From positions 1-40,237 of the forward strand of contig JAKLDG010000002.1 of assembly GCA_022703645.1 (NCBI GenBank): DNA of 40,237 nt, given 5' to 3'. How positions within the stretch are numbered: position 1 is the first letter of the stretch; each line of letters opens with the position of its first letter. This DNA comes from Patescibacteria group bacterium (GTDB lineage: Bacteria > Patescibacteriota > JACPGU01). Under the pieces are notes generated by a model. The model worked only from the letters and a program-made list of their open reading frames with translations, was not told the DNA's origin and made no database searches. This document shows positions 3,290 through 40,237 of this stretch, one piece after another. The position numbers and the translations under genes were made by a program.

Positions 3290-4203
3290 TTTTCTATTTT
3301 CTTAATTATATTAGTTGGCGAATATATTATCTCGAACTTTCCTTGGATATGGTTTACGGCTGAACTGGCTATGGCGAAACTGGCTGAACTTTCTGATGTT
3401 TTTTTTATGTAATTGACTGCCTCTTGAAATGTATTTACTTTCCCATAGCTTGGGATATGCTCATAAGTCGATTTTCTTAATACTGGAATGCAACCGCTCA
3501 TTATTGCGTCAATGGTTGAATAGGAAAAAAACTCTAATTCACTCATTGAAAATACAAATTGCATTTTTCTTAATTGTTCCAAATATTCTTGCCGGTCATC
3601 AATATCCAATACTTGTATCTTTGTGCCTTTGACAAAAGGTTTAGCTTTTTCTCCTCCAAAACAATAAAAACTGAAATGACTTGGCAAGGCTTTGGATAAT
3701 TGCACGAAGAGGTCTAATCGTTTTGCTGGGTCGTCTATGCGATGATTATATACTACGCTGAATGGTCTAGTCTTTCTTAATACTCCTGCCTCGGGGTATA
3801 TTTCAAGGGGTAAGCCTATTTCTGTGCTTTCTATCTCAAAAGCTTTTTTTATCATTTTATCTACTTTTGGTGTTTGAGCAAAAGCCATTTTTACATTCTT
3901 AAATTCAGGATATTTTTCAGGGTTCAATAATATTGGGTGTCGGTGGAAAAATCCATAGACTTCTCTATCTTTATAATCTATTCCACAATCTAAATCAAGA
4001 CAAACCACTTTGCCTTTGTCTTTTATTTTAGAAACTAATTGCAAATATTTTTCCCGATTATAAGATTCGTTGAATTGATAAACTTTCCAATTATTCTTCT
4101 CGAACTCGGATTCTAATTGAGCAACCAATCTTCCCCAATCTGCTTGGTCTTTCTTCATTACACTTACCAAAATACCTTTGTAGGACTGTTCTTGTTTCTT
4201 CAT
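3274..4203 (-). CDS. GT-B-fold (GT4-like) glycosyltransferase-like protein embedded in the deazaguanine cluster
   Basis: 309 aa. The C-terminal half resembles the GT1/GT4 nucleotide-sugar-binding domain: HRIDDPAKRLDLFVQL...FYCFGGE...VFSMSELEFFSYSTIDAIMSGCIPVL (an E-x7-D/E-like motif followed by G-x-PV). Assignment is by motif only. Confidence 0.5.
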   Translation of the reverse strand: MKKQEQSYKGILVSVMKKDQADWGRLVAQLESEFEKNNWKVYQFNESYNREKYLQLVSKIKDKGKVVCLDLDCGIDYKDREVYGFFHRHPILLNPEKYPEFKNVKMAFAQTPKVDKMIKKAFEIESTEIGLPLEIYPEAGVLRKTRPFSVVYNHRIDDPAKRLDLFVQLSKALPSHFSFYCFGGEKAKPFVKGTKIQVLDIDDRQEYLEQLRKMQFVFSMSELEFFSYSTIDAIMSGCIPVLRKSTYEHIPSYGKVNTFQEAVNYIKKTSESSASFAIASSAVNHIQGKFEIIYSPTNIIKKIEKCVFA

Positions 4204-4882
4204 ATCTTTTTTTTGAATTAAATTTTTTATCTAAAACTCTTTTCCAATACTCTTGCGCGGTTTTTGTAGTAGCTGGATTTTTTAGAAAAATATCTCTCGT
4301 GTTTATGTGATTATATTCTAAAGCAATCCATTTCCTAAAACAACTTGGACATTCTCCGCATTGTCCCTCATCTTCACTATAACAAGACACGCTAGTTTTT
4401 AATAATTTTATTCTATCCGGTAATGATAATTTTACTTTGTCGGTTTCTAAAAACCATTTTATTATTTCACTTTTTGAATAAGCCCAAAATGGCGAACGGA
4501 TTGATATTTTTTCGCCGGTTATTTCCGATATAACCTCGCTCATTTTCATAAAAGCCCGAATATTTTTATCCGGCACATCATCGCCGTTTATTCCGATAAT
4601 ATAAACATTTTTTGCGTATTGTGCGCCGAGTAAAGCTAAAAATAAATTTCTCCCGGGTATATTGGCTTTATCTCCAATCTCAAATTTTCCTAGTGGAAAA
4701 TCTGCCTCAATAATTAGGCTGTCTTTTATTTCTTTATCAATTCTCGATAATCTTTCAAAAGTAAGCAATTCTTTTTCGGTGTAGTGAGTGAGTAGCGGAA
4801 CATAATAAGCGGTTGGCTTGCCTAGATAATACCAAGCGATTAAACTATCTATTCCTCCACTCATTAAGATAATTTCTTGCAT
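4091..4882 (-). CDS. queC: 7-cyano-7-deazaguanine (preQ0) synthase QueC
   Basis: PP-loop ILMSGGIDS near the N-terminus. The C-terminal Zn-Cys cluster is SCYSEDEGQCGECPSCFRKW. The start is set at ATG 4882; the track ORF start at 4894 is TTG. The last ~37 codons overlap the next gene by 113 nt (see finding). Confidence 0.85.
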   Translation of the reverse strand: MQEIILMSGGIDSLIAWYYLGKPTAYYVPLLTHYTEKELLTFERLSRIDKEIKDSLIIEADFPLGKFEIGDKANIPGRNLFLALLGAQYAKNVYIIGINGDDVPDKNIRAFMKMSEVISEITGEKISIRSPFWAYSKSEIIKWFLETDKVKLSLPDRIKLLKTSVSCYSEDEGQCGECPSCFRKWIALEYNHINTRDIFLKNPATTKTAQEYWKRVLDKKFNSKKRYEETRTVLQRYFGKCNEERPSRLGKIGCSIRIRVREE

Positions 4883-5148
4883 ATTGTTTTCCAATCCTTA
4901 AAAATTAAAGCTTTGTCGTCTATGTAAAACTCCCCGATAGGTTTGCCAAATACTATTCTGTCATATTTAATTCCGTATTCTCTCAAGGTCGCCATTGTTC
5001 GTTTCCGGTCGCATTGGTATCTTGAAGTGTGCAAGATTATCCGGTATTTTTCTCGAAGTCTATCAATGGCATTTTTAGTGTTTGGGATTATCTCAACTCT
5101 GTTCCGTAAAATAACTCCGTCAATGTCAATGACTATGGCTGGTTTCAT
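4864..5148 (-). CDS. Minimal HAD-superfamily phosphatase-like protein
   Basis: 94 aa with HAD motif I IVIDIDGVI (DxDG), motif II-like LHTSR, motif III-like GKP and motif IV-like YIDDKA. Its start overlaps the folE stop as ATGA. Confidence 0.55.
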   Translation of the reverse strand: MKPAIVIDIDGVILRNRVEIIPNTKNAIDRLREKYRIILHTSRYQCDRKRTMATLREYGIKYDRIVFGKPIGEFYIDDKALIFKDWKTICKKLS

Positions 5149-5693
5149 TTTTTTATTAAATTAAAAAATTCTACTCGAGTTGCCTCATTGTTTCTAAATA
5201 AGCCGGTCAATTTTGAAGTTATCATAACAGAGTTTTGCTTTTCTACTCCTCTTGCTCTCATACATAAATGCTCCGCCTCTAATACCACTGCCACGCCTTT
5301 TGGTTTTAAGGCTTTTTCTATCGCTTTTGAAACTTGCTGGGTTATTCTCTCTTGATTTTGCATACGCCTAGCATAAATGTCTAAAATTCTTGCTAATTTT
5401 GATATTCCAACTATCTTTTTTCTTGGAATATAAGCGATATGTGCTTTGCCAAAAAATGGCAATAAGTGGTGTTCGCAAGTTGAATAAAATTCAATGTCCC
5501 TCAAAATAACCATTTGCTCATTGTCCTCGTTCGTGAAAGTTGTCAAAATGTCTTCCGGTTTTTGTTTATAGCCTTCAAATATTTTGGCATAGGCTTTTCT
5601 CACTCGTTCTGGGGTTTTTACTAATCCCTCTCTTTTGCAATTCTCTCCAAGACAAGTAATTATTTCTTGGACTGCTTTGTCTATTTTTTCCAT
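5145..5693 (-). CDS. folE: GTP cyclohydrolase I (FolE)
   Basis: 182 aa with the hallmark STCEHHLLPFFGKAHIAYIP and the downstream QERITQQV motif. Confidence 0.9.
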   Translation of the reverse strand: MEKIDKAVQEIITCLGENCKREGLVKTPERVRKAYAKIFEGYKQKPEDILTTFTNEDNEQMVILRDIEFYSTCEHHLLPFFGKAHIAYIPRKKIVGISKLARILDIYARRMQNQERITQQVSKAIEKALKPKGVAVVLEAEHLCMRARGVEKQNSVMITSKLTGLFRNNEATRVEFFNLIKK

Positions 5694-5695
5694 AA

Positions 5696-5845
5696 TTAGT
5701 GCTTAAAAATTAAATAACCAATAAAAATTCCTACAATTCCTAGTATGCCTGCCAAATTGGTCGGCGCCGGAATTGGTAATCTTAAAAACGCAAATACTCC
5801 GCCTAAAATAAATCCTACTAAATATGCCTCTAATAAAATAATCAT
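5696..5845 (-). CDS. Small hydrophobic protein (49 aa, about 2 TM segments)
   Basis: Hand translation: MIILLEAYLVGFILGGVFAFLRLPIPAPTNLAGILGIVGIFIGYLIFKH. Its ATG overlaps the queE stop (ATGA) and its TAA lies 2 nt before the folE ATG. It is below the ORF-track size cutoff. Confidence 0.4.
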   Translation of the reverse strand: MIILLEAYLVGFILGGVFAFLRLPIPAPTNLAGILGIVGIFIGYLIFKH

Positions 5846-6486
5846 ATCCCTTTTTTCTTGTTAAATAAATTAACTTGCAATCTTGGACTGAAATTATATC
5901 CCATAAGCAAACACCACGACCATACTTGTTTTGCTTTTTGTTCTTGCTCTTTTTTAGTCTGTCCCTCCGGCATAATCCAAACACATTTATCCGGCACATT
6001 GTATTTCTTAATCGTTTCTTTTATAAATTTTCTTGAAGCTAAATCTGAATAGACAAATTTTACTATGGTATTTTTTTCACTAAGCATTGAGTCTGTCAAA
6101 AATACTGGTTCAGGGTTGCATTGTTTTGGTTGAAATCTTTTTTCTTTTGGCGATATGTTCCATTGATTGATATGACTAAAAATTCTTGGTTCGGGGATAA
6201 TTGTGCCATTCGTTTCAATTTCTACTTTGTAAGGACTGTATCGGTCAATCAAATCCATAATGGCTTGCTGTTGCAATAGTGGCTCTCCGCCGGTAATACA
6301 CCACTCGTCATATTTCTCTAAAAGTTTTTGGTCGGTTTTATTTATCTCTCTGCCTTTGATATGGTATTTCGTATCGCAAAAATTGCACCTTAAATTGCAA
6401 CCACTCAAACGAATAAACAATCTAGGCTTTCCGGCTGATATTCCCTCGCCTTGTATTGAATAAAAAATCTCGTTTATCTTCATCAT
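5842..6486 (-). CDS. queE: 7-carboxy-7-deazaguanine synthase QueE (radical SAM)
   Basis: 214 aa. Contains IFYSIQGEG and the radical-SAM cluster CNLRCNFCDT. Confidence 0.9.
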   Translation of the reverse strand: MMKINEIFYSIQGEGISAGKPRLFIRLSGCNLRCNFCDTKYHIKGREINKTDQKLLEKYDEWCITGGEPLLQQQAIMDLIDRYSPYKVEIETNGTIIPEPRIFSHINQWNISPKEKRFQPKQCNPEPVFLTDSMLSEKNTIVKFVYSDLASRKFIKETIKKYNVPDKCVWIMPEGQTKKEQEQKAKQVWSWCLLMGYNFSPRLQVNLFNKKKGI

Positions 6487-28088: not shown

Positions 28089-28394
28089 CTATAATTTAGC
28101 CAATAAAACTTCCATATGTGGAAAAGCACCATAATCGAAATTTTTAATTGACTGAACTGTATATTCCACTTCTTCCAATAATATTCTGTCGCTTTCTTTC
28201 AAATCAATTTGCTGACAAAATAATTTGAAAATCTTGCCAATTTTTTGACTGCCAATTTCTTCCAAATCTCCGTAAGGTTGTAGCATACCTGCTTGGGCGG
28301 TCAAATATTCTTGATAATCGCTCTTTGAAGTATCCGCAATATCGGTTAATCTTTTTGTAGTAAATTCAGTTTTTAGTAATGATTCAAACGACAT
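28089..28394 (-). CDS. Head closure protein (SPP1 gp16 / HK97 gp9-like)
   Basis: About 101 aa. ...AQAGMLQPYGDLEEI...DRILLEEVEYTVQSIKNFDYGAFPHMEVLL is typical of head-closure proteins. The start is set at ATG 28394; the track start is TTG. Confidence 0.55.
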   Translation of the reverse strand: MSFESLLKTEFTTKRLTDIADTSKSDYQEYLTAQAGMLQPYGDLEEIGSQKIGKIFKLFCQQIDLKESDRILLEEVEYTVQSIKNFDYGAFPHMEVLLAKL

Positions 28395-28995
28395 TTTGTT
28401 TAGTAAATTCTTCAATTATTTCTTTAGCTAATTCAAAATCTTTCCATTGGTCATCTTTATAAGAAACAGAATAGTCGCCAATTTTTTCACTTTTGATTTC
28501 TCCGTCTGCGTGATTGCTAAAATTCATAATGCCGGAGGCTAAAACCATTGTAGCGAAATTTATCTGTTTTGGCACTGTTGACGAGTAGCCAAATTGACCG
28601 GTTATTTTGATATTTCGGATTCCAGAGTTAAAAACCGAAATTAAGGGGTTTCCGGGTGCGACAATCAGTTTACGCATAGGCTGGCTGTTGTAGGGATAGC
28701 CGTAGCAATGCGTATCTAGCTCCAAGGTGTATAATATGGTTCCGTCGGTATCAAGTATCTCAACAGAGGTAATTTCGAGGCACTCGTCGATATACATTTC
28801 CTCTTTTCCGTTGCCGTCAAAGTATCTGACTTCGTCCTCTGCGTCATCTTCAAGTATGAAGTTTCTGCCGGTTCGCCTGTCAATAATTGCTTCGGCAGTT
28901 TCAATCCAGCTTTCAATCTGCGTTTCAAATCCACTCTCAATTTCCGTAAGAGTGTAATTTTCGATTTCTTCAACTGAACAATATCCTTTTAACAT
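28384..28995 (-). CDS. Head-tail adaptor (gp6-like connector) with C-terminal extension
   Basis: The N-terminus SVEEIENYTLTEI...QIESWIETAEAIIDRRTGRNF resembles gp6-like head-tail connector proteins. Confidence 0.6.
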   Translation of the reverse strand: MLKGYCSVEEIENYTLTEIESGFETQIESWIETAEAIIDRRTGRNFILEDDAEDEVRYFDGNGKEEMYIDECLEITSVEILDTDGTILYTLELDTHCYGYPYNSQPMRKLIVAPGNPLISVFNSGIRNIKITGQFGYSSTVPKQINFATMVLASGIMNFSNHADGEIKSEKIGDYSVSYKDDQWKDFELAKEIIEEFTKQNVV

Positions 28996-28999
28996 ATTT

Positions 29000-30736
29000 T
29001 TATAATTTTACAGAATAAGGTTTCGTTTTTTTTGAATAAGGATTTACTTTTCTGCCATAATGGCTGTTTTTTCTAGTATAAATCCTTTTCAATCTTTTTG
29101 CAATAGCTGTCAATTCTATGCTTCGATTGCTGTTGACGGTTATTGCTCCCACGATGTCAATATTTCTGTCATTTGATAAAGTTTCTATACCTGACAATTC
29201 AATTCCTCGTTCGCTGGTTTCTCGATATGCTCCAAAAATATTGATTGCTCTCTCGCTTAATAACTGGTCTGTGCCGTGTAAATTTATATTTCTTTCCGAG
29301 TTAGTTTCTGCCTCTGCCTCTAAGATAATGCCTCTTTCGGAAGTAGTATCAATTTTTCCAGTCAATTCAATTTGACGAATTTCGTTAGCTGTTTTTTCTC
29401 CGGTGGCTTCTATTGTTCTTTGAGAATATGCCGAATTTTTACCGCTCAATTCAATATATCTTTCTTCTTGACTTTCATCAATTCCGCTAAGTTCTATTAT
29501 TCGTTCCTCTATTTTAGTATTTGCTCCAACAAGTTCTATTTCTCTGTCCTCATTTTTTGAATCAATACCGCCAACCTCTAAACTTCTTTCTGTCTGACTA
29601 AAATTTTCAGCATTTAATTCAATGCTTCTTTCGTCATCAGCACTTTCTTTACCAGTTATTTCAAAGGCTCGTTCTGTTTGAGTAGTATCAATTCCAGCTA
29701 CTTCAATTATTCTTTCTCCAACTCCTCTGATTGTTCCTTCCAATTCAATTTCTCTTTCAGTGTTTGTTTGGTTGATTCCTTTGACTTCAATATTTCTGTC
29801 GCCAGTAATTTTTATTGAACCAATCAAATCAATATTTCTTTCGCTTTGAGCATTATCAATTCCGTGTAATTCAAATTCTGTTTCTGTTTCTGTTTGATTT
29901 TGTCCGGCAAGGTTTATTGCTCTTTCTGATTGGCTAAATTCTTTACCCACTAATTCAATGTCTCGATTATCTATCGCTTGATTTTCTCCGTGCAACTCAA
30001 TAGCTTTTTCGGTATTGGCAAGTTCTTTTCCGGTCAATTCTATCGCTCGGGTTTCTAATAAAGTTTCAATACCGCTCAATTCAATGTTCCGGTCGCTGAC
30101 ATTATTTTGCGTTCCCTCAATTTCAATCGCCCTGTCGCTCGTCTCAATTTTTTTAGCAGATAACTCAATACTTCTTTCTGAATTGACTATGGTCTTACCG
30201 GATAACTCAATCACTCGTTCTGATAAACTATTATCTTCTCCGTGAATATTTATAATTCTATCAGAATTTGATAAATCTTCTCCGTGAACTTCTACGGCTC
30301 GGTCTGAATTGGTAATATCTTTACCGGCTAAATTTATTGCTCGGTCTGAATTTGATATTTCTTTTCCTTGAAGTTCTAATGCTCTTTCGCTGTTGGAAAT
30401 ATTTTTTCCAGTGATATTTATTGCTCGTTCGGAGTTAGTATTTTCTTTTCCAGTTAGCACAATACTCCTGTCTGAATTTGCAGAATTTTTACCAGTGATA
30501 ATAATTGCTCTATCTGAATTTGTCGAGGCTTTACCGGATAATTCTATGCTTCTGTCTGAACTATCAGTTGTTCCTCCTCCTCCGCCTGTTGCACTAACTC
30601 CCCAAAAAGGCGTTCCTTTATCTTGATAATCTAACCCATTCAAATCTACATCTGATTTTGCTCCGACATTAAGAAAAGGCTTTCCTTTATGTTGCCAATC
30701 CATTGTCTCCAAGTTTTCTTTTGTTGGTAAAGCCAT
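29000..30736 (-). CDS. Repeat protein: 59-aa N-terminal module, 35 tandem 14-aa repeats, 29-aa basic tail (fibre or solenoid candidate)
   Basis: 578-aa ORF. Residues 60-549 parse into exactly 35 units of 14 aa (consensus S-[DE]-R-x-I-[EN]-L-x-G-x-x-x-x-N) with no indel. Confidence 0.8.
   Translation of the reverse strand: MALPTKENLETMDWQHKGKPFLNVGAKSDVDLNGLDYQDKGTPFWGVSATGGGGGTTDSSDRSIELSGKASTNSDRAIIITGKNSANSDRSIVLTGKENTNSERAINITGKNISNSERALELQGKEISNSDRAINLAGKDITNSDRAVEVHGEDLSNSDRIINIHGEDNSLSERVIELSGKTIVNSERSIELSAKKIETSDRAIEIEGTQNNVSDRNIELSGIETLLETRAIELTGKELANTEKAIELHGENQAIDNRDIELVGKEFSQSERAINLAGQNQTETETEFELHGIDNAQSERNIDLIGSIKITGDRNIEVKGINQTNTEREIELEGTIRGVGERIIEVAGIDTTQTERAFEITGKESADDERSIELNAENFSQTERSLEVGGIDSKNEDREIELVGANTKIEERIIELSGIDESQEERYIELSGKNSAYSQRTIEATGEKTANEIRQIELTGKIDTTSERGIILEAEAETNSERNINLHGTDQLLSERAINIFGAYRETSERGIELSGIETLSNDRNIDIVGAITVNSNRSIELTAIAKRLKRIYTRKNSHYGRKVNPYSKKTKPYSVKL
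29090..30559 (-). repeat. 42-bp-period coding tandem repeat (35 diverged copies)
   Basis: This is the DNA equivalent of residues 60-549 of the 578-aa ORF. The copies are diverged at the nucleotide level but strictly in register. Confidence 0.85.
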
Positions 30737-30737
30737 T

Positions 30738-31025
30738 TCATTTCTTTATTATCTCATTATTATTTTTAATCATTTCGAGATTAACTTTTCTGTCGCTCAA
30801 TTCGATAATTTTATTATCAATCTCTTTTATTTCTTCCACAATATCCTTTTCTTTTTGTGCCTCTCGGTTGATTAAAAATTTTTCCACTCCTTTTTTGACA
30901 GTTGCGTCATCTACTTCGCCGTGAAATTTTAAGATAATACTTTCTCCCTCGCCAATGTCAATATACGCCCGATATTTTCCGGCAATGTCCATTTCCTTTT
31001 TCCAAATTTTTTTATATTCTTGCAT
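30738..31025 (-). CDS. Hypothetical protein (95 aa), possible fibre chaperone
   Basis: ATG-initiated ORF with a coiled-coil-like C-terminus, between the two large accessory genes. The function is a guess. Confidence 0.5.
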   Translation of the reverse strand: MQEYKKIWKKEMDIAGKYRAYIDIGEGESIILKFHGEVDDATVKKGVEKFLINREAQKEKDIVEEIKEIDNKIIELSDRKVNLEMIKNNNEIIKK

Positions 31026-31029
31026 AAAT

Positions 31030-33393
31030 TTAAGCTTGGCTAATTGTTATATCGTCAATATAAACGCTACTATTTCCTGCTACAAAATATCCTTCAAAAA
31101 TAATCTCTACCACTCCGGCAACAGTCGGCGTGAAGCTAATTGATAATTGTTCCCAATCTGTATCATTAGCTTTGACATCGGCAACATCTGTCGTCACTCC
31201 GGCAATCTGTTTGCCTTTACAAACTATTCTCGCACCGACATCGGTAGCGTGGTCTTTTTTAACATAAGCAGAAACCGTCACTTCGGCATTAGCGTTGCAA
31301 GCCACTTTAGCAATTCTCATATTTATTGGAAAAGTAGCGTTTCGAATTCCTCTAGTAGTAGTAATTTGCCAAGCTTTTCCACTGGCGGTATGCCGTGTCG
31401 TGGCTTGGTGGTAAATTCTACCGCCCATTAAAAATACCACTAAATTTCCGGCAGTGTCGTCGTGATTGAGTGAGTAAATTCTATCGCCATATTCATCATA
31501 GAATAGCGTAGTTGCTAATTCAACAAATTCAGTTGCTTCATTTATAATGGCAGTTTCAATATTGGCAAAAGTTCCATAAGTTGCCATTCCTCCGAGTGTG
31601 TTATTTTTTGTTTCTAAAAATCCAACAGTGCCACCACTAGGCGTATTGTTAAAGATAACTCCATTTTTTGTATTATCGTGAGAAAGCGTGATTTCATCAA
31701 TTCTCGAATCAGAATCTGCTCCAATCATTACTCCGTGTCCAGTATTATAAGCAACATCTTCAATCGTTCCAATGCTAGAATTTCTTAAAATAATATACAG
31801 TCCGACTGTAGTTGATAAATTTCCTTTAACATTTTTTATTGTTCCAACAACTGAACCTTTTTGAGCAGTTATTTGCGTATAATTAGAATAATTATAATTC
31901 ATATTATAAATACTATCCAATGTTGAATTTATCATCGTTATTGCTAATCCACCATCTCCGGTATTATTAACATTTCCAATAACGCCTATGTCTAAATCAT
32001 AGCCATTGGTAATATAAAATCCTCGAGAAGCAGAATTGCTTGAATCTTGCACATCAATCTTAAATCCGACTGGGGTGTCTAAATAAAAATTAGAATAATA
32101 CCTCGTAGCAGATATTCTATCCAAAGTTATATAATATTTGCCTGACGCAGAATAAATTCCGTATCCTCCTCCATTTGTTCCGTCAAAAAAAGTTTCTCCG
32201 TTTTGTTCTGATGATGATGTGTCATATCCTCCTTGAAATGCAAGTCTATTTGCCATACTTCCTCCACTGTCTTGAATTTCTTGAACTTTTGCCGTAGTGC
32301 TTGAAGCAAAAACTGTTTTTATTGTTTCTCTTTTGTAAGTAGCAACATTTTCAGTCGTTCCGTAATATTTTCCGATATTCGCAACTTCTGCAGTAGGGTC
32401 TCTATCCAAAGTAATAGTATCTCCGACAATACTTTTAATAGCATACCAGCCTTCTTCTCCGCCGTGAGCAAGGGAATTTTTTGAAATAAGACTTGTCAAT
32501 GAAAGACTGTCCGCTGAACCAACAGCTTTGCAAGCGATAATATTATCAAGATAAATTGTCGGTGTGGTTGGGTCGCTGGTGCAAGTTAGTGAAATACTAT
32601 TTATATTACTTCCCAAAGCAGAGCCTTTATTAACAGTAATACAATGCCAACGACCAGCATATAATAAATCTGGAATAGCAAAACTATCTACTACTGTCGT
32701 TCCGGCGGTATCAGAGCATAAATTTAATGTCATTCCTTTGCCATTAAAAGTTGTGCTGGAAGCCCTTATCCAAAAACTTAATTGTTGATATCCTGATAAA
32801 TTCAATGCTCCACCTAAATTTCTGTAAGCCAACATTCCAGTTGTAAAACTAGACCCAACTACTATTTTTGCTCCATAAGTCCCTTGTTTGACATAATCAG
32901 TAGAAGCAGTTGCTGTAATATTAGCGGAAGCTGTCCAACCACTTTCACATAAATCAACTGTGGCATTGACAGCTGTATCTAAAACAACTGTCGAGCCTTG
33001 GTCTGTCCAATCAGCATTTCCAACCGAGGTAGGGTCTGGACTTTTAGCTATACGAATTATATCTCCTCCTCCAACTCGTGCGGCGGTTGCTCCTGATGTT
33101 ATGGTCTTCCAAGCTAAAGCCCAAGTTGAGCCGTCATTAGCGTCAGAGCCATTGACATAATCTAAATAATATGTCGAGTTGCCGGTCGCCCAGTGGATTA
33201 TTCTTGACAATTTTGAAGATTTTTGACCTTTGTTAGTCAAGACATCTTCTAAAAAAACTATAAATTTTTTGACAAATTTAATATGCCCAAAATCATAACC
33301 ACCATTAAATCTTATTCGTAAAAGCAAGTCAATTAGTTTTGACGATATTATGTCATTATTTTTGTCTAGTAATAGTTCTTTGGCTATCAACAT
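31030..33393 (-). CDS. Right-handed beta-helix protein flanked by two CBM-like jelly-roll modules (depolymerase/fibre-like)
   Basis: 787 aa. YYLDYVNGSDANDGSTWALAWKTITSGA...GGGDIIRIAKS is typical of pectate-lyase-like beta-helix N-caps. Repetitive N/G/T-rich rungs span ~aa 430-620. The CBM-like segments end in ...IYLDNIIA and ...VYIDDITISQA. Confidence 0.6.
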   Translation of the reverse strand: MLIAKELLLDKNNDIISSKLIDLLLRIRFNGGYDFGHIKFVKKFIVFLEDVLTNKGQKSSKLSRIIHWATGNSTYYLDYVNGSDANDGSTWALAWKTITSGATAARVGGGDIIRIAKSPDPTSVGNADWTDQGSTVVLDTAVNATVDLCESGWTASANITATASTDYVKQGTYGAKIVVGSSFTTGMLAYRNLGGALNLSGYQQLSFWIRASSTTFNGKGMTLNLCSDTAGTTVVDSFAIPDLLYAGRWHCITVNKGSALGSNINSISLTCTSDPTTPTIYLDNIIACKAVGSADSLSLTSLISKNSLAHGGEEGWYAIKSIVGDTITLDRDPTAEVANIGKYYGTTENVATYKRETIKTVFASSTTAKVQEIQDSGGSMANRLAFQGGYDTSSSEQNGETFFDGTNGGGYGIYSASGKYYITLDRISATRYYSNFYLDTPVGFKIDVQDSSNSASRGFYITNGYDLDIGVIGNVNNTGDGGLAITMINSTLDSIYNMNYNYSNYTQITAQKGSVVGTIKNVKGNLSTTVGLYIILRNSSIGTIEDVAYNTGHGVMIGADSDSRIDEITLSHDNTKNGVIFNNTPSGGTVGFLETKNNTLGGMATYGTFANIETAIINEATEFVELATTLFYDEYGDRIYSLNHDDTAGNLVVFLMGGRIYHQATTRHTASGKAWQITTTRGIRNATFPINMRIAKVACNANAEVTVSAYVKKDHATDVGARIVCKGKQIAGVTTDVADVKANDTDWEQLSISFTPTVAGVVEIIFEGYFVAGNSSVYIDDITISQA

Positions 33394-33402
33394 ATTTTTT
33401 AC

Positions 33403-33807
33403 TTAAATTATTACACTCCAAGATATTTCAGGGTTTTTTTCTGACACCCAAATTTGAAGTTTCTTATTTTCATAAATAGCTTCCGCCACTGTATAAAGTT
33501 CTTGCTCCTCCATTTGTCCGTTGCATACATCAGCTCCCATTGCTCGAAACATTTTATAGCCGGTTGGCTTTTCTGCCAAATCAAAAACTCGGAACTTTGG
33601 ATTTCTGCCTGCACTAGGCAAATTCCAGCGTTGTCCCGAGTTTGTGTAAAGTGAAAGAGAAGTTATCTGCAACTTTTCTTCCGTAAGTTTTTTTTGTAAT
33701 TTCTGCCAAGGGGAAAGTTCGTTTTTAACTAATTGATAATCGCCTTTGCCCTCGTATAGCGTTTGTCCGTTAGATAGACTAACCGACCAATTTATTTGAG
33801 TCTTCAT
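33403..33807 (-). CDS. Hypothetical protein (134 aa)
   Basis: ATG-initiated ORF with no recognised motif. Confidence 0.55.
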   Translation of the reverse strand: MKTQINWSVSLSNGQTLYEGKGDYQLVKNELSPWQKLQKKLTEEKLQITSLSLYTNSGQRWNLPSAGRNPKFRVFDLAEKPTGYKMFRAMGADVCNGQMEEQELYTVAEAIYENKKLQIWVSEKNPEISWSVII

Positions 33808-33828: not shown

Positions 33829-34392
33829 TTAACTATAAGTCAATTCTATTCGATATTTTCCAGTCTTAGCTCCAACACTGGAAGGACTGGCAGAACAAGC
33901 AATAAAGAAGTCGTGCGAAGTTCCTGCGGAATTGTCTGCCAATGCTAGGGCTGAACCACTACCCTCTGCGTCTGTGAAATTAGCGTTTCCAACTTCCGCT
34001 GCTTTGAAATTTATCCCACTTGGTGCGGTGGCTGGGGTTGAGCCGTCATAAGCGTAAAATATTGCGTCCTCGGTAATGACAGAAGCGTCGTCAGCAAAGT
34101 TTATTTTCAAATTAGCCTCTGCGGTTGTAATTTGGTCAAGGTCTTCTGTTCCGTCTCCCCAATCAGCTTGACTGTCTCCGCCTGTGCCTCCTGCTTGCGA
34201 AATAAACTTAACATTGTTTGGAGTATTAGCGGAAGACTTGTCGGCGTTAGCGGCGGTTTTGACGTGGTTTGAATCATTATATTCGTCAACAGTTATTTTG
34301 CCGTCAAATGTGCCATTGGCAAATTGTAATTTGTCAGTAGCGTCAATAACCGTTGGGGTTGCTCCTTGGAGCGTGTGTGTAAATGTAGCCAT
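33829..34392 (-). CDS. S/T/A/G/D-rich hypothetical virion-surface candidate (187 aa)
   Basis: ATG-initiated. Its composition is distinct and more G+C-rich than neighbouring genes, and it has no hydrophobic segments. A decoration role is inferred from position only. Confidence 0.55.
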   Translation of the reverse strand: MATFTHTLQGATPTVIDATDKLQFANGTFDGKITVDEYNDSNHVKTAANADKSSANTPNNVKFISQAGGTGGDSQADWGDGTEDLDQITTAEANLKINFADDASVITEDAIFYAYDGSTPATAPSGINFKAAEVGNANFTDAEGSGSALALADNSAGTSHDFFIACSASPSSVGAKTGKYRIELTYS

Positions 34393-34654: not shown

Positions 34655-36004
34655 TTATATACAACCTTTACTTTTTAGCAGTTGCATATCTTGTATTCTG
34701 ATATTAACATATTCTCCTTTTTTTTGCAACTTGCCTTGATATTTGAAATCACTCTTTGCGATTATTCCCTCGGAAGTTATCTCCTCTATGGCTTTTCTCT
34801 CCGGTAATTCCATTTTTTCTAATTTCTTTAACCATTTATCATTAAATAATTCCTCATTCTCTCTAGCGTAAGTGAATCGGTCGGCACTCTTGCTCAAAAA
34901 ATGAGTAATGGCATTTCTGACATATCCGAATTTCTTTTTTTTCTGCATTGCTCTTAGGAAAAAATCAACATCTTCGCCACCATTCATAAATTCTTCATCT
35001 AATCCGCCTAATTCTTCCCAAATGTCTTTCTTGACCTTAAAACAAAATCCACTAGGCATACTTTCATATCCGGCAATATCCTCTAGGCTTTTTACAATTA
35101 CTCCGTTTTCTAATTTTATGCTTATGCCGTATTTAGTCACTTTTCTGTCAGGAATGTATTGAGCAATGCCGGTAATATCGCTATCGTCCTTTACCATTTT
35201 CATTAAGTATTCGTGAACTGGGATAGTATCGTCATTCAAGAAAATTAAATTTTCTGTTTCTGCCAGTCTAGCTCCTTTATTACAACTCTCGGAAAATGTG
35301 CCACCGCTAATTATGATAATATTAAATAACTTATTGTCTAATGTTTTTAAGCAGTCTGCCAATAGTTCGTGCTGGTCGTGGTGGGGGATAATAATATCAG
35401 CAATTTTTTTAAGGTGTTTCTTATATAAATATTTCATCCATTTTTCACTATCATTGCCGGTTGAAATTCCTCCCGGTCGGTTGAATGTTTTGAACAATAT
35501 CTTATCGCAAAAAACTGGTTTGTGTCCGGCTCGAGTTAGTCTTATCCATAATTCCCAATCATCATATCTTCGCATATCAGGACTAAATTTTGGTTTTGCA
35601 CTGGCTCTTATCAATGACATTGTGCTAATTCCGTGAAAGTAGTCAATAAATTCTTTGCTCTCCATATCTTCCGGCATTTCTCCTTTGTTGATATTAAATT
35701 CTGTCCGGTCGATAATAAATTTCCCGAAAGCCCAATCAGCCCATTTATTTTCCTGCAAGGTTTGGTATAAATTACTTAGACAATCCTTATCTAAATCTAA
35801 GTCATTATCACAAAAAAATAAATACTCTCCTTTGGCTTTTTTTAATCCCTCATTTCTTGCCCAACTAGCGCCTTTAGCGTCTTTATCAATAATTTCAATT
35901 ATCTCAATATTATTGTAGGTCTGTTCTTTAACCGATTTCAAAGATTCGTTTTTCTCTGTTGCTCGGTTTGGAATAATTATTGATATTAGTGGCAATTTTT
36001 TCAT
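34655..36004 (-). CDS. Two-domain GT2-family (GT-A fold) glycosyltransferase
   Basis: Domain 1: LISIIIPNRATEKNESLKSVKEQTYNNIEIIEIID...GASWARNEGLKKAKGEYLFFCDNDLDL (DxD). Domain 2: ADIIIPHHDQHELLADCLKTL...SCNKGARLAETENLIFLNDDTIP. Confidence 0.75.
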   Translation of the reverse strand: MKKLPLISIIIPNRATEKNESLKSVKEQTYNNIEIIEIIDKDAKGASWARNEGLKKAKGEYLFFCDNDLDLDKDCLSNLYQTLQENKWADWAFGKFIIDRTEFNINKGEMPEDMESKEFIDYFHGISTMSLIRASAKPKFSPDMRRYDDWELWIRLTRAGHKPVFCDKILFKTFNRPGGISTGNDSEKWMKYLYKKHLKKIADIIIPHHDQHELLADCLKTLDNKLFNIIIISGGTFSESCNKGARLAETENLIFLNDDTIPVHEYLMKMVKDDSDITGIAQYIPDRKVTKYGISIKLENGVIVKSLEDIAGYESMPSGFCFKVKKDIWEELGGLDEEFMNGGEDVDFFLRAMQKKKKFGYVRNAITHFLSKSADRFTYARENEELFNDKWLKKLEKMELPERKAIEEITSEGIIAKSDFKYQGKLQKKGEYVNIRIQDMQLLKSKGCI

Positions 36005-36060: not shown

Positions 36061-37188
36061 TTAATATACTTCAGGAACATCCAACAAAACTACAGCCTCG
36101 TTCATCGCCATCATTCCGTCTGTTCTCTTGACTAGACGAACAGTGATTTCATCATATCTAAATCTCTCGTGAATGGAAGCGTCAACTGTAATTCCTTCTC
36201 GGTCTCCGATATAATACCAACTAAAATCTACAAAGATAAGGTCTCCCTTAGTTCCAAGTTCTGAAACCTTTTCAGTTTCAATGAAAGGTCGTCCTTTTAA
36301 GGTTGGAGGTGTTCCCTCTTTATAGCTGTCAGCCCAAATCGGTCGTCCGGTAGTTGCATCAACTAATCCGTCAAGATATTCAATCACGCTTGTAGAACCA
36401 AGCCAAATGGCGTTCTTTCTGAACTGTGGTTTAAGCGAATAAAACATCGAGATAACATCAGCATAACTAACTTTATTAGCCTCTACTCGGTTCACAACTG
36501 GCGAATCTTCGTCAGCAATAATACCAAGAGGTTGAGTCTCGCCGTCGCCGTTTAGGAAGGCATAATCTTCAAAATAAACAGCCGCGCGACCAAAAATATT
36601 GACTACATAGTTTGCAAAGTCAATATTGCTATCGGACAAAATTTCTCTCGATTCAGAAGTAAGCATAAGCATTTTCTTTGCTACCAAAGAAACTTGTTTT
36701 AGCTTAAATTGAGTATCAGTAGTCGTTCCACTTTCGCCAACCCAAGAAACCGTCACACCACCGAAAGAATTACCTGACTGGTCAAGTTTATTTTTCTTCC
36801 AAGTGTTTGATTTCATTTTAATAACAGTCGCTCTTGGTCTAACGATAGCTTCTTCTTCCATATAGGACAAAATGGAAGCTTCGAGTTCTTCCGGCACTGT
36901 AAATCCTCCGTCGTCATCATCTGTTTCGTTAAAAACAGACTTGGTGTTTCTCATCATTGCTTTCAAATCGGAACAAAACTTATCCATTTCAGAACCAAGT
37001 TTTACGAAAGGAGCTTTCGTTCTTTTCATATCCATTAAAGACTTCTCGCCTAGTTCCAAATCCTTGTTTCTAAGGTCAGCGTCTTTTTTGGTTTGGTCTT
37101 GAACAATGGTTTTGATTTCGTCCATTTTTCCGGCAACGACATCATTGACAGCTTTGCCAATGAGTTCTAACAATTCTTTTTCGTTCAT
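36061..37188 (-). CDS. Major capsid protein, HK97 fold, with N-terminal delta-like domain
   Basis: 375 aa. The N-terminal ~100 aa are coiled-coil. Then DDGGFTVPEELEASIL..., ...FEDYAFLNGDGETQPLGII... and ...GRPFIETEKV... match the HK97-type capsid family pattern. Follows the prohead protease. Confidence 0.9.
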   Translation of the reverse strand: MNEKELLELIGKAVNDVVAGKMDEIKTIVQDQTKKDADLRNKDLELGEKSLMDMKRTKAPFVKLGSEMDKFCSDLKAMMRNTKSVFNETDDDDGGFTVPEELEASILSYMEEEAIVRPRATVIKMKSNTWKKNKLDQSGNSFGGVTVSWVGESGTTTDTQFKLKQVSLVAKKMLMLTSESREILSDSNIDFANYVVNIFGRAAVYFEDYAFLNGDGETQPLGIIADEDSPVVNRVEANKVSYADVISMFYSLKPQFRKNAIWLGSTSVIEYLDGLVDATTGRPIWADSYKEGTPPTLKGRPFIETEKVSELGTKGDLIFVDFSWYYIGDREGITVDASIHERFRYDEITVRLVKRTDGMMAMNEAVVLLDVPEVY

Positions 37189-38124: not shown

Positions 38125-40237
38125 TTATTCAATTACTGGTAATATTGTGCAACGACAATTTATGATATTTTCGGGACTGCCGTTTGGGTCTCCCGGATAA
38201 TCTAATTCTTCATCGCCCACCTCAAATTTTTTATCAATATTGACGACTTGTCCGTCAGCGTGGCTATGTCCGTCTCTCGTTTTTTTGTCTTGTGTTGCCA
38301 ACCATTCCTTTTTTTTCACTACGCCGGATTGCTTATATCCAAATACTGTTCCTGCATTGTTAGCAGATAGCACCTCTGTTCTCGATATAGTTTTGCTACT
38401 GCTTAAAATTCTTAATCCATAAACCTCCTCAATTCTTTTTGCCAATTCGCCAATACTCTCTCCGTTTAATACGCCGTCTGCTAAGGTGTTTTTGATTTTC
38501 TTAATAGTCGTCTCATTTACTTCTTCTGCGAATTTCATTGCTTTTAATTCTATCCATTCGGCAGTTATCGGGTCGCTGATTTCAAAATCTTTTTTAATTG
38601 ATTTCTCTCCGACTTGTGCCAACGCTTCATTTCCAGCCTCCTCAACTATCTTTGTGAAAGTAGGCGTTGATTTCTTTATAAATATTTTAACCTCTTTTTT
38701 GAAATTAAGCAAATCCAATTCAGAACTTTTAACAGTCTTGCCAAGTTTTGATTTTTTCAAAGCCTCTAAGGCTCTCTCTTGTTGTTCTCGGAATAATGAA
38801 TTGACCATTGCCTTAAATTTTTTCTCCCAACCGATAATAGACTTGTCGAAAATATCCCAAGCTTTTTTTCTTTTATCTTCTTCCTCTTTTTTTACAGCAT
38901 TTTTACTAATTTGATTTTGAATTGATTTTGCTACTTCGATTGTTATTTTGGAAATTAAATCTTCTTTTAGTCTTAGCATTTTTCTTCCTCTAACTGCTTT
39001 GCGATAAATCTTTTTTAGTTGCTCCTCTTTTCTTCTTGTGTAAAATTCCTTAGCGGTTATGTTCCCTCCAATCTTAATAATAGCAAAACCTGATTTTGTA
39101 ATTTTCATAGCTTTATTCGTATCGTCATCGTCTTCGCCTGTGTCGTTCGTATTTTCAATACCCATAGGCATAAGGGATAGCGGTTGATAAATAAAATCTC
39201 CTCCCTCTATTGGGTCGTAGCCTTGCTCCATTCTTATTTCGTTGGTCGTCATCCATTTATTATGGGCTTTGATATAGTGGTCATCGAGGGAAGCTTTGTC
39301 GTCCGGTGTTGGGTCAATGTTCAATAAAAATAAATCGTCTCCATATTCTGTCACTAAAAATTGATTCAAGACATCGACGTGCTTTTCCATTTTTGGTCTA
39401 ATTGTTTCCGATAAGAAAGCATACACTCCAGCTTCTGCGTTGGCTCGGTTCACATCGTCAGTTATCGCCATAATTGCCTTGTTCACTCCGAGGGTCATTA
39501 AAACATCATCTCGGTTGGCAATTCTCATATTGGCAAAGTCCATATCTTTTTGAGAAACGCTCACTGCCTCATATTTCAATCCGTTTGTGAGAATAGAAAC
39601 TTTACCGGCATTATCTACACCACCATATTTCTCATTCCATTTTTCCAAAATTTCTTCCTTGTCCTCTTTGTTCATTGCTTTTTCACTTGTCAGCAAAGCG
39701 TCTGGTCTAGCAGAGTTGTAAAAAAATCTAGTATTCCATTTTTTAGCATAGACATCAGAACGGATAACTTCCATTACTGATTGCACTGCTCCATAACCGT
39801 AATAGTCTGAAAGTGGGTCAGGTTCTTTGAAATGTATCACATCTTCCGCCGGAAATTTTATCTCTTTTCCGTTTAAGCGAAATTTATAATAGCTAATCCC
39901 TCCGTCATTGGCTGGCACGATAGTAGTCAAGTCCGGTCTCATCAACCATAACTCAATTACTTGTTTGTTTGCTCCTCTAGCTTTATACCAATAGCATTGT
40001 CCTAGCAATGACAAATAAATCGAAGTTATTTCGATTAACTGGCTACCGCTCATTACTGGGTTTGGATTTTGAAGTAAGTCAAGAAGTTCGTGCTGTTCAA
40101 TTTCTCTTGCTTTCAATCCTCGTAATTGATAAAGTTCATATTCTATCGTGGACATTTTCTCCCCGATTTTCTTTGTGCAAGAGTGGACAAGTGAGCTTGC
40201 TCTGAATGATTGCAAATAATCTCTCGTGCTTGGTTCA
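38125..40237 (-). CDS. Portal protein (HK97 family) fused to a Mu F / SPP1 gp7-like head-morphogenesis domain; the 5' end continues at 78..163 across the junction
   Basis: The portal part reads LLDLLQNPNP...LLGQCYWYK...YYGYGAVQSV. The C-terminal ~250 aa end in TRDGHSHADGQVVNIDKKFEVGDEELDYPGDPNGSPENIINCRCTILPV, the MuF motif. An SD-preceded internal ATG at 40155 is an alternative start. Confidence 0.85.
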   Translation of the reverse strand, partial: EPSTRDYLQSFRASSLVHSCTKKIGEKMSTIEYELYQLRGLKAREIEQHELLDLLQNPNPVMSGSQLIEITSIYLSLLGQCYWYKARGANKQVIELWLMRPDLTTIVPANDGGISYYKFRLNGKEIKFPAEDVIHFKEPDPLSDYYGYGAVQSVMEVIRSDVYAKKWNTRFFYNSARPDALLTSEKAMNKEDKEEILEKWNEKYGGVDNAGKVSILTNGLKYEAVSVSQKDMDFANMRIANRDDVLMTLGVNKAIMAITDDVNRANAEAGVYAFLSETIRPKMEKHVDVLNQFLVTEYGDDLFLLNIDPTPDDKASLDDHYIKAHNKWMTTNEIRMEQGYDPIEGGDFIYQPLSLMPMGIENTNDTGEDDDDTNKAMKITKSGFAIIKIGGNITAKEFYTRRKEEQLKKIYRKAVRGRKMLRLKEDLISKITIEVAKSIQNQISKNAVKKEEEDKRKKAWDIFDKSIIGWEKKFKAMVNSLFREQQERALEALKKSKLGKTVKSSELDLLNFKKEVKIFIKKSTPTFTKIVEEAGNEALAQVGEKSIKKDFEISDPITAEWIELKAMKFAEEVNETTIKKIKNTLADGVLNGESIGELAKRIEEVYGLRILSSSKTISRTEVLSANNAGTVFGYKQSGVVKKKEWLATQDKKTRDGHSHADGQVVNIDKKFEVGDEELDYPGDPNGSPENIINCRCTILPVIE
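40161..40237. repeat. Terminal direct repeat, copy 2 (identical to 1..77)
   Basis: Same 77 nt as the window start. Confidence 0.95.

What the first reader, a model, noticed from the sequence alone, without database searches (positions are those of the whole stretch)
29090..30559. 35 tandem 14-residue repeats in perfect register (S-[DE]-R-x-I-E-L-x-G-x4-N): candidate novel solenoid or fibre shaft
Seen: residues 60-549 of the 578-aa ORF split into exactly 35 consecutive 14-mers (SDRSIELSGKASTN, SDRAIIITGKNSAN, ... SNRSIELTAIAKRL) without a single insertion or deletion. Arg3, Ile5, Leu/Ile/Val7 and Gly9 are conserved and positions 10-14 are variable. The DNA copies are well diverged, so this is old, selected periodicity rather than a recent duplication or an assembly artefact. 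The N-terminal 59 aa contain two copies of a D-[WY]-Q-x-K-G-x-P-F motif and a G5 hinge. The C-terminal 29 aa are strongly basic (KRIYTRKNSHYGRKVNPYSKKTKPY). Established: short strict periodicities build fibrous folds, for example the 15-residue triple beta-spiral of adenovirus/reovirus fibres and the 12-15-residue beta-solenoids of antifreeze proteins. Inference: this is a long rod (about 35 rungs) of a repeat class I do not recognise from described phage fibres.
Basis: partly seen in the sequence, partly recalled or inferred. Interest (0 to 1): 0.7.

Follow-up and report, generated by a model that had tools for sequence, protein, structure and literature searches.

The report
Undescribed 14-residue repeat stalk in phage fibres
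A phage gene encodes 35 perfectly in-phase copies of a 14-amino-acid repeat that matches no described protein family or solved structure, and it turns out to define a few hundred uncultured-phage proteins where it most likely forms the stalk of a virion-attached adhesion fibre.

Summary
ORF 29000..30736 (-) encodes 578 aa, and residues 60-549 are 35 uninterrupted 14-mers (z = 23.5 against shuffles). An independent assembly gives an identical gene.

The repeat is not an orphan. A profile search finds 350 representative proteins (137 at E<=1e-30) with the same strict period and the consensus [SD]-E-R-x-A-[KEY]-[ILVT]-T-G-K-D-T-x-[NS]. None matches Pfam, NCBIfam, an annotated PHROG or a PDB sequence. 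No cultured phage carries it.

In viral contigs the gene sits between the major capsid gene and the head-tail adaptor gene. It always travels with two other unknown proteins of 187 and 134 aa.

Most members have the layout: variable lectin-like N-terminal domains, then the array, then a short C-terminal tail of aromatic/Lys mini-repeats. The tail type follows the phage lineage.

My best reading is a stalk anchored by its C-terminal tail. In this phage the N-terminal duplicated D[WY]xx[QK]GxPF motif would dock the separately encoded 787-aa beta-helix-like protein.

The fold is unresolved. The AF2 monomer model is weak (pLDDT 61) and has no Foldseek hit. This looks like a new variant of a known kind (a fibre or adhesin stalk), and possibly a new fibrous fold.

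The parts
29000..30736 (-). 578-aa repeat protein (whole ORF including the stop codon)
   Evidence: The gene is identical in an independent assembly.
29090..30559 (-). Array of 35 x 14 aa (aa 60-549). Consensus S-[DE]-R-x-I-E-L-x-G-x4-N. Net charge about -41. No Pro, Cys or Trp.
30560..30736 (-). N-terminal 59 aa: a duplicated docking-type motif followed by a Gly5 hinge
   Evidence: The first 44 aa match MetMV AZF89921.1, and the L049 orthologue has the same layout.
30674..30700 (-). Motif copy 1, DWQHKGKPF (aa 13-21)
   Evidence: Regex D[WYF]xx[QK]GxPF
30605..30631 (-). Motif copy 2, DYQDKGTPF (aa 36-44)
30572..30586 (-). GGGGG hinge (aa 51-55)
29003..29089 (-). C-terminal tail of 29 aa, made of four Tyr/Lys heptads (+10 charge). 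Proposed virion anchor.
   Evidence: The same tail type occurs in L003b, P0007 and L024.
30738..31025 (-). 95-aa protein that looks like a coiled coil, between the 787-aa gene and the stalk gene. It is conserved (38% id) at the same position in L049. Possible assembly factor or adaptor.
31030..33393 (-). 787-aa protein. By eye it looks like a right-handed beta-helix with CBM-like ends. It is 43% identical to MetMV AZF89914.1. Proposed partner docked by the stalk N-terminus.
   Evidence: No Pfam, PHROG or PDB hit.
33403..33807 (-). p134, a conserved 134-aa protein of the module
   Evidence: Cluster c2, 38 members, always next to p187
33829..34392 (-). p187, a highly conserved 187-aa all-beta protein of the module
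   Evidence: 525 clusters, the 120 listed 64-82% id. AF2 pLDDT 94. No convincing structural neighbour.
28384..28995 (-). Head-tail adaptor gene immediately downstream of the stalk gene
   Evidence: phrog_442 E = 5.5e-15. Same order in other loci.
36061..37188 (-). Major capsid protein gene, the upstream boundary of the inserted module
   Evidence: phrog_10 E = 2.3e-60; PF05065

Best explanation
The array is the extended stalk of a virion-associated adhesion fibre. It belongs to a previously undescribed family that I call the 'SER-G 14-mer' family here.

Shown:
- It has a strictly 14-residue period that is kept under protein-level selection.
- It is shared by a few hundred proteins of uncultured tailed phages.
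- It is encoded between the capsid gene and the head-tail adaptor gene.
- It always accompanies two other conserved unknown proteins, p187 and p134.
- Typical members carry variable lectin-type domains (LamG, DUF2341, BNR propeller, H-type lectin, CBM-like) N-terminal to the array.
- Typical members end in a short tail of aromatic/Lys mini-repeats, and the tail type follows the phage lineage.

Inferred:
- The array forms a rigid, regular rod, probably oligomeric and rich in beta structure, about 17-46 nm long for 35 units depending on the fold.
- The conserved C-terminal tail (here four x-x-Y-x-K-K-x heptads) is the end fixed to the virion, on the capsid or the neck.
- The N-terminus is the distal, exchangeable end.
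- In this phage the lectin part is not fused. Instead, the N-terminal duplicated D[WY]xx[QK]GxPF motif docks the separately encoded 787-aa beta-helix-like protein.
- The assembly therefore holds a carbohydrate-binding or depolymerase head away from the particle for reversible host-surface binding.
For: Periodicity and selection.

Not an artefact.

Family: 350, 233 and 137 representatives at E<=1e-3, 1e-10 and 1e-30. Of the 152 examined, 151 have a coherent per-protein consensus. Pooled over 4172 units, R3 is 85% and G9 is 95%. Runs of up to 39 units occur without an indel, and shifts are rare.

Pairs or triplets of units flank inserted globular domains. That is how a spacer or stalk element behaves.

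Structural-operon context. In 20 of 20 loci with at least 6 kb downstream of p187 there is a protein with 6 or more repeats within 7 kb.

Lectin-type partner domains.

Tails: 106 of 151 proteins with a scored array have a tail of 70 aa or less. Tail type tracks the neighbouring connector cluster. Within the c10 lineage all 12 tails are W[YF]-type, yet 43 of 55 N-terminal pairs share no detectable similarity.

N-terminal motif: it is found only in the window, L049 and MetMV, which are exactly the loci with a 787-like gene just upstream. L009, which also has a 787-like gene, has an analogous duplicated LKYWxNGE.

Orthologues differ by whole units: 19 in L049 against 35 here.
Against: There is no direct evidence that the protein is in the virion. 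No cultured phage has the repeat or p187.

The AF2 monomer model of 12 repeats is weak (pLDDT 61, pTM 0.38) with no secondary structure assigned and no Foldseek hit. The fold and oligomeric state are therefore unknown.

Within-protein covariation shows only local couplings and no strand-pairing ladder.

The main family has only one or two hydrophobic residues per 14, which is also compatible with a flexible hydrophilic spacer.

A C-terminal anchor is the reverse of the usual polarity of phage fibres. The link between tail type and lineage could simply reflect vertical descent of the C-terminal half.

Some members carry globular domains after the array.
Confidence: 0.5

Rival explanations
1. 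Classical fibre polarity. The N-terminal duplicated motif anchors the protein to the virion, directly or through the 787-aa protein. The array is the shaft. The basic Tyr/Lys tail is the distal tip, acting as a sticky tip or a C-terminal registration (foldon-like) element.
For: The N-terminal 44 aa are conserved with MetMV while the rest of the protein differs. That is the usual pattern of a conserved N-terminal anchor. Some tails (K-R-Y-N-G-S-x-W-E, three copies) resemble, from my memory, the T4 fibritin foldon hairpin.
Against: Only 4 of 151 family members have a short N-terminus. In the rest, the N-terminus starts directly with variable lectin domains. The lineage-conserved end is the C-terminus.
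Confidence: 0.2
2. The array is a single-chain beta-roll with 14 residues per turn, as in the YadA-type head or the Lolium ice-binding protein. It would be a thin solenoid about 17 nm long, not an intertwined oligomeric fibre.
For: Alternating R3/I5/L7 and 10/12/14 with Gly9 fits two short strands per coil. By my own knowledge, 14-residue coils exist in YadA heads and LpIBP.
Against: AF2, which normally models solenoids confidently, gives pLDDT 61 and no strands. Foldseek finds nothing. There is no sequence match to YadA or LpIBP families in Pfam or PDB. The single Pfam LbR_Ice_bind hit among 53 members was not localised: a recalled LpIBP sequence gave only a marginal match in the N-terminal region of P0051, and a Pfam re-scan of P0051 did not list that family. 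The main family has Ala at position 5, which leaves a very thin core.
Confidence: 0.15
3. The array is a flexible, hydrophilic spacer (an entropic bristle) with no fixed fold.
For: The composition is very polar (24% hydrophobic here, less in the main family). The AF2 confidence is low.
Against: Disordered linkers do not keep an exact 14-residue phase over as many as 39 units across hundreds of proteins. They also do not keep Arg3 and Gly9 at 85% and 95%.
Confidence: 0.07
4. The array is itself the ligand-binding surface. A ladder of invariant Arg (with Glu/Asp) would bind a repeating polyanionic host polymer such as teichoic acid, capsule or pili.
For: Arg3 is more conserved than any hydrophobic position. 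That is unusual for a purely structural repeat.
Against: The window array has a net charge of about -41. Subtypes differ in charge (AK against AE/IE). Lectin domains are already present in most members.
Confidence: 0.08

Closest known systems
Triple beta-spiral shafts of adenovirus fibre and reovirus sigma1 (about 15-residue repeats; my own knowledge)
   Same: Both are short tandem repeats of nearly fixed length with alternating apolar positions and a conserved Gly/Pro turn. Both carry a distal binding domain on a virus particle.
   Different: The period here is 14, not 15. Only two apolar positions (5 and 7) are present instead of four. Arg3 is invariant. No PDB sequence match was found. Trimer state is untested.
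T4 gp5 C-terminal triple beta-helix (Pfam Gp5_C, 8-residue VxGxxxxx repeat)
   Same: A Gly-containing short repeat that builds a phage needle or fibre.
   Different: The Pfam Gp5_C match has E = 2.2, below the cut-off. The period and consensus differ.
14-residue-per-coil beta-rolls: YadA-type heads of trimeric autotransporter adhesins and Lolium perenne ice-binding protein (my own knowledge)
   Same: They have the same repeat length and sit in an adhesin context (YadA). The strand-turn-strand-turn pattern is plausible here too.
   Different: There is no sequence similarity in Pfam or PDB searches. AF2 does not produce a roll.
Head fibres and fibrous decoration proteins encoded next to the capsid gene: phi29 gp8.5, SPP1 gp12 (collagen-like), T4 Hoc (my own knowledge)
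   Same: The gene position is between the capsid and connector genes. They are repetitive or fibrous accessory proteins. In Hoc the binding domains are N-terminal and the capsid-binding part is C-terminal, the polarity proposed here.
   Different: The sequences and repeat types are unrelated. Capsid attachment is not demonstrated here, and the anchor could equally be the neck.
Methanosarcina virus MetMV AZF89914.1 / AZF89921.1 gene pair
   Same: The 787-aa protein is 43% identical to AZF89914.1. The next gene shares the duplicated N-terminal DWxFQGQPF motif.
   Different: The MetMV partner has no 14-mer array. Both MetMV proteins are annotated as hypothetical, and the MetMV host call is in silico only (PMC7164591).

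Membership tests
SER-G 14-mer repeat family (defined here) | Tandem units of exactly 14 aa with Arg at position 3 and Gly at position 9 | tested here: met
   Window: R3 33/35, G9 31/35, 35 units in phase. Family: R3 85%, G9 95% over 4172 units. The profile search gives 137 proteins at E<=1e-30.
SER-G 14-mer repeat family (defined here) | Encoded downstream of p187/p134 and upstream of the head-tail adaptor | tested here: met
   The window order matches about 30 loci. Co-occurrence is 20/20.
SER-G 14-mer repeat family (defined here) | Large variable N-terminal domain (median 417 aa) before the array | tested here: not met
   The window has only 59 aa before the array, one of 4 of 151 with 80 aa or fewer. 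The lectin-like part appears to be the separate 787-aa gene.
Triple beta-spiral (adenovirus/reovirus fibre shaft) | About 15-residue repeat with apolar residues on two strands and Gly/Pro at the turn | tested here: not met
   The period is strictly 14. Apolar residues occur only at 5 and 7, and the second half is polar or variable.
Triple beta-spiral (adenovirus/reovirus fibre shaft) | Sequence or structure similarity to solved shafts | tested here: not met
   No PDB sequence hit with the protein or the profile. There are 0 Foldseek hits, but the model is of low confidence.
Triple beta-spiral (adenovirus/reovirus fibre shaft) | Homotrimer with intertwined chains | not testable with these tools
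   Only monomer AF2 is available. The low monomer confidence is compatible with a trimer but proves nothing.
Pfam Gp5_C (T4 gp5 beta-helix repeat) | Score above the Pfam gathering threshold | tested here: not met
   9.0 bits against a cut-off of 20.4, E = 2.2
YadA-head / LpIBP-type 14-residue beta-roll | Match to the Pfam models or to solved chains | tested here: not met
   Not listed for the window protein even at E<=10. Profile against PDB gives nothing. The one LbR_Ice_bind hit among 53 relatives was not localised; it was not reproduced when the candidate member P0051 was re-scanned.
YadA-head / LpIBP-type 14-residue beta-roll | Single-chain solenoid with one coil per 14 residues | tested here: inconclusive
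   The AF2 monomer gives pLDDT 61 with no strands assigned. The covariation analysis is uninformative.
Head fibre / decoration protein (functional class) | Gene between the major capsid protein and the head-tail connector genes | tested here: met
Head fibre / decoration protein (functional class) | Physically bound to the capsid lattice | not testable with these tools
   This needs virions. No cultured phage carries the module.

The most novel reading that the evidence does not exclude
The 14-mer builds a fibrous fold not yet represented in the PDB. It would be an intertwined oligomeric beta-structure held together by an Arg/Glu ladder. It would serve as the stalk of a C-terminally anchored, N-terminally exchangeable adhesin system (p187 - p134 - fibre). 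That system would move as a cassette between unrelated lineages of uncultured phages, possibly phages of Saccharibacteria (Candidate Phyla Radiation, CPR).
Probability: 0.3. Interest if true: 0.8.

Novelty: new variant of a known kind. Interest (0 to 1): 0.6.

Why it matters
Phage fibres and adhesin stalks are built from only a handful of known repeat folds. Here a repeat that is strictly periodic and occurs in a few hundred proteins has no family assignment and no confident AlphaFold2 monomer model, so it is a good candidate for a new one.

It also marks a three-gene cassette: p187, which has a confident but orphan beta-sandwich fold, p134, and the fibre. The cassette is shared by phages whose capsid proteins belong to different families. 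That points to a portable host-adhesion device in a large, entirely uncultured phage group.

If the C-terminal-anchor model holds, the family is a natural display scaffold. It has one fixed anchor, a stalk whose length can be changed in 14-residue steps, and interchangeable lectin heads.

Tried and rejected
1. Known-family assignment. Pfam (E up to 10), PHROGs, NCBIfam, PDB phmmer and PDB profile searches gave nothing significant. The best PDB 'hit' (collagenase PKD domain, E = 0.38) is chance.

2. Word-indexed homologue search with the repeat profile found only one extra protein. This tool suits the repeat poorly. The exhaustive HMMER search was the informative one.

3. AF2 on 12 repeats, using an MSA made of in-phase blocks from the window and five homologues, gave low confidence. 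Foldseek on that model gave 0 hits.

4. Mean-field DCA on 3348 42-residue windows is dominated by same-position couplings at lags 14 and 28, which is a subfamily effect. Mutual information against within-protein shuffles gives only local couplings in positions 10-14 and weak, inconsistent longer ones. No strand-pairing pattern could be extracted.

5. Cultured-phage relatives. tblastn with three subtypes gave no true member. The weak hits were a coiled-coil tail-fibre esterase, which has a different repeat, and an off-frame match in an E. coli phage.

6. P0152, an AERDxxIxGLN 14-mer attached to a sulfotransferase-like protein, scores with the profile but looks helical and unrelated. The low end of the 350 hits therefore contains analogues.

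7. I considered p187 as the docking partner of the tail. This is unlikely, because p187 is 64-82% identical across lineages whose tails are of different types.

8. The archaeal host suggested by the MetMV hit was set aside, because that host call is purely computational.
Full report
**Observation**

The window is almost a whole phage genome of about 40.2 kb, with all genes on the minus strand. ORF 29000..30736 (-) encodes 578 aa.

Residues 60-549 (window 29090..30559) divide into 35 consecutive 14-mers without any insertion or deletion. Conservation is R3 33/35, I5 30/35, L/I/V7 34/35 and G9 31/35.

Identity at lag 14 is 0.38, against 0.086 +/- 0.013 in shuffles (z = 23.5). Lag 28 is slightly higher at 0.42.

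The DNA units average 50% identity, and third codon positions are the least conserved. The periodicity is therefore old and maintained at the protein level. TRF detects only a weak 42-nt period near the 5' end of the array.

A separate public assembly contains the identical gene, 1737/1737 nt.

The tail is in fact four heptads: RIYTRKN / SHYGRKV / NPYSKKT / KPYSVKL.

**Context in the window**

In transcription order the genes are:
- portal fused to a Mu-F-like domain
- S78 protease
- HK97-type major capsid protein
- a GT2 glycosyltransferase
- a 187-aa protein (p187)
- a 134-aa protein (p134)
- a 787-aa protein
- a 95-aa protein
- the repeat protein
- head-tail adaptor
- Neck1 / gp10-like protein
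- tail tube
- tape measure
- Dit (distal tail protein)
- a Prophage_tail (Tal-like tail-tip) protein
- tail fibre

The repeat gene is thus the last gene of a roughly 7-kb insertion between the capsid gene and the connector genes of a siphovirus.

**The repeat defines a family**

The word-indexed search found five metagenomic proteins with the same repeat. A 56-column profile built from the window and those five was then searched exhaustively against 1.84 billion representative proteins. It gave 350 proteins at E<=1e-3, 233 at E<=1e-10 and 137 at E<=1e-30.

Of the 152 I inspected, 151 share a coherent per-protein consensus. Pooled over 4172 units from 183 proteins, the consensus is [SD]1 E2 R3 (85%) x4 A5 (59%) [KEY]6 [ILVT]7 T8 G9 (95%) K10 D11 T12 x13 [NS]14.

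The window belongs to a minority 'I-E' subtype. In-phase runs reach 39 units, and phase shifts are rare. An orthologue in another contig has 19 units instead of 35.

No member is recognised by Pfam, NCBIfam or a PHROG with a known function. Neither the protein nor the profile matches any PDB sequence. tblastn with three subtypes against 50,697 cultured-phage records finds no true member.

**Architecture of the family**

The region before the first repeat has a median length of 417 aa, and only 4 of 151 proteins have 80 aa or fewer. In 106 of 151 proteins, 70 aa or fewer follow the last repeat.

The N-terminal regions contain LamG, DUF2341, Gly-rich, BNR-propeller, H-type lectin, DUF285, GLUG-like and His-x-His-rich segments. 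Most have no Pfam match.

Pairs or triplets of units bracket inserted globular domains. A few members carry a CBM-like domain after the array. This is how a modular spacer or stalk behaves.

The C-terminal tails are themselves mini-repeats rich in aromatic residues and Lys/Pro. The types seen are:
- (S/T)PY(S/T)xK heptads, often bracketed by Cys
- W[YF]xKxPK motifs
- YTDKF 11-mers
- K-R-Y-N-G-S-x-W-E hairpin-like triplets
- RPT...TPTIL

**A conserved cassette**

p187 is 60-68% identical in three of the four homologue contigs, although their capsid proteins fall in different PHROGs. It occurs in 43 IMG/VR contigs and in 525 90%-identity clusters, none of them annotated.

After clustering all genes of these loci, the recurrent order is: capsid gene, p187, a small ORF, p134, zero to two large proteins, the 14-mer protein, head-tail adaptor. 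This order holds across at least seven different capsid-gene clusters.

Every one of the 20 loci with at least 6 kb downstream of p187 has a protein with 6 or more repeats within 7 kb. The median distance is 1.85 kb.

p187 gives a confident AF2 model (pLDDT 94, pTM 0.89, all-beta). Its structural neighbours are only weak: chaperone-usher pilins at E = 3.5e-3 and TM 0.30-0.39, and nothing in the BFVD viral structure library at E<=1e-3.

p187 barely varies while the tails vary a great deal. Its partner is therefore more likely the array itself, or a conserved host structure, than the tail (inference).

**Which end is attached?**

Tail type follows the phage lineage, as defined by the neighbouring connector genes:
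- all 12 loci of the c10/c11 lineage with a scored array have W[YF]-type tails
- the c28 lineage has Y-T-x-K/R 11-mers
- the window and L024 (c38 adaptor) have PYSxK heptads
- the c68/c69 lineage has RPT...TPTIL tails

Within the c10 lineage, 43 of 55 pairs of N-terminal regions share no detectable similarity. In phage receptor-binding proteins the lineage-conserved end is normally the one bound to the particle, and the exchangeable end faces the host (established principle). Applied here, this makes the C-terminal tail the anchor and the N-terminus distal (inference).

The window protein lacks an N-terminal lectin domain. It starts instead with a duplicated D[WY]xx[QK]GxPF motif. Among all proteins collected, this motif occurs only in three proteins: the window protein, its orthologue in L049, and MetMV AZF89921.1. 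Those are exactly the three cases where a homologue of the 787-aa protein is encoded just upstream.

A fourth locus with a 787-like gene (L009) has an analogous duplicated LKYWxNGE motif. The MetMV protein shares only this N-terminus and has no 14-mers.

The simplest reading is that the motif docks the 787-aa protein. By eye this protein looks like a right-handed beta-helix with CBM-like ends, but it has no database match. It would replace the fused lectin head of other family members.

**Fold**

An AF2 monomer prediction of units 1-12 used an in-phase MSA of 25 blocks. It gave mean pLDDT 61, pTM 0.38 and no DSSP elements. Foldseek returned no match.

DCA and shuffle-controlled mutual information yielded no strand-pairing signal.

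The pattern of alternating 3/5/7 and 10/12/14 with Gly9, and with beta-branched residues at 7 and 8, fits beta structure. The exact phase and the near-invariant Arg and Gly argue against disorder.

The data are compatible with either an intertwined oligomer or a thin 14-residue beta-roll. Oligomers are usually poorly modelled as monomers. By my own knowledge, 14-residue beta-rolls exist in YadA heads and in the Lolium ice-binding protein. These tools cannot decide between the two. Depending on the fold, 35 units would span roughly 17 nm (4.8 A per unit) to 46 nm (13 A per unit).

**Verdict**

The interpretation 'novel fibre shaft' is plausible and is supported by context and architecture, but the fold and virion location remain inferred.

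I rate it a new variant of a known kind (a phage fibre or adhesin stalk). There is a fair chance (about 0.3) that it is a new fibrous fold belonging to a portable adhesion cassette of uncultured phages.

**Host**

The only two of 185,579 species-representative genomes that carry p187 are both 'Candidatus Saccharibacteria' metagenome-assembled genomes (MAGs). One of them holds the orthologous five-gene module. This is a lead only, because the contigs may be binned phage genomes.

Noticed in passing
window 33829..34392 (-): p187 is 64-82% identical across the 120 listed of its 525 clusters, which come from phages with unrelated capsid proteins. It has a very confident AF2 model (pLDDT 94) with no convincing neighbour in PDB or BFVD (the best are chaperone-usher pilins, TM 0.3-0.4). 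It is absent from 50,697 cultured-phage records.
   Followed up: yes
L049 (CAYOME010000007.1) and L050 (CAZULJ010000015.1): The only two species-representative genomes with p187 are 'Candidatus Saccharibacteria' MAGs. L049 carries orthologues of p187, p134, the 787-aa protein, the 95-aa protein and the repeat protein. This is a possible host clue for the whole phage group, or it may be a binning artefact.
   Followed up: partly
window 4091..6486 (-): A gene cluster resembling 7-deazaguanine (queuosine/archaeosine precursor) synthesis: QueC-like (4091..4894), GTP cyclohydrolase I (5145..5693) and a radical-SAM QueE-like gene (5842..6486). It suggests a modified genome.
   Followed up: no
window 34655..36004 (-): A GT2-family glycosyltransferase gene lies directly between the capsid gene and p187. 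I did not see it in the gene maps of the other loci, so it is probably not part of the conserved cassette. It could glycosylate virion proteins.
   Followed up: no
window 29003..29089 (-); P0007, L003b, P0036, P0060, P0074: C-terminal tails made of (S/T)-P-Y-(S/T)-x-K heptads, often starting with YC and ending with C. They are superficially reminiscent of the RNA polymerase II CTD heptad and of mussel-foot Tyr/Lys/Pro decapeptides. Their meaning is unknown.
   Followed up: partly
P0152 (aa 311-604): An unrelated-looking Ala/Leu-rich 14-mer (AERDxxIxGLNxAx) attached to a sulfotransferase-like domain scores E = 4e-27 against the repeat profile. It is either convergent R/G spacing or a very distant relative.
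   Followed up: partly
window 217..1926 (-) and 38125..40215 (-): Gene order on identical contigs of 40,190 and 40,301 bp shows a 541-aa MJ0330_N-domain protein, probably the large terminase, just before the portal. In the window this corresponds to ORF 217..1926. The window is therefore a circularly permuted, essentially complete genome. The portal is fused to a Mu-F-like domain.
   Followed up: partly
L003 4099..10276: One contig carries three consecutive genes with the 14-mer (428, 658 and 903/910 aa). The first ends in two units followed by what looks like the start of an FN3 domain just before its stop codon. This may be a frameshift or a split gene.
   Followed up: no
window 30738..31025 (-): A 95-aa protein that looks like a coiled coil lies between the 787-aa gene and the stalk gene. 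It is conserved at the same position in L049 (38% id). Small ORFs of 67-92 aa occupy the same position in other loci. It could be a fibre assembly factor.
   Followed up: partly
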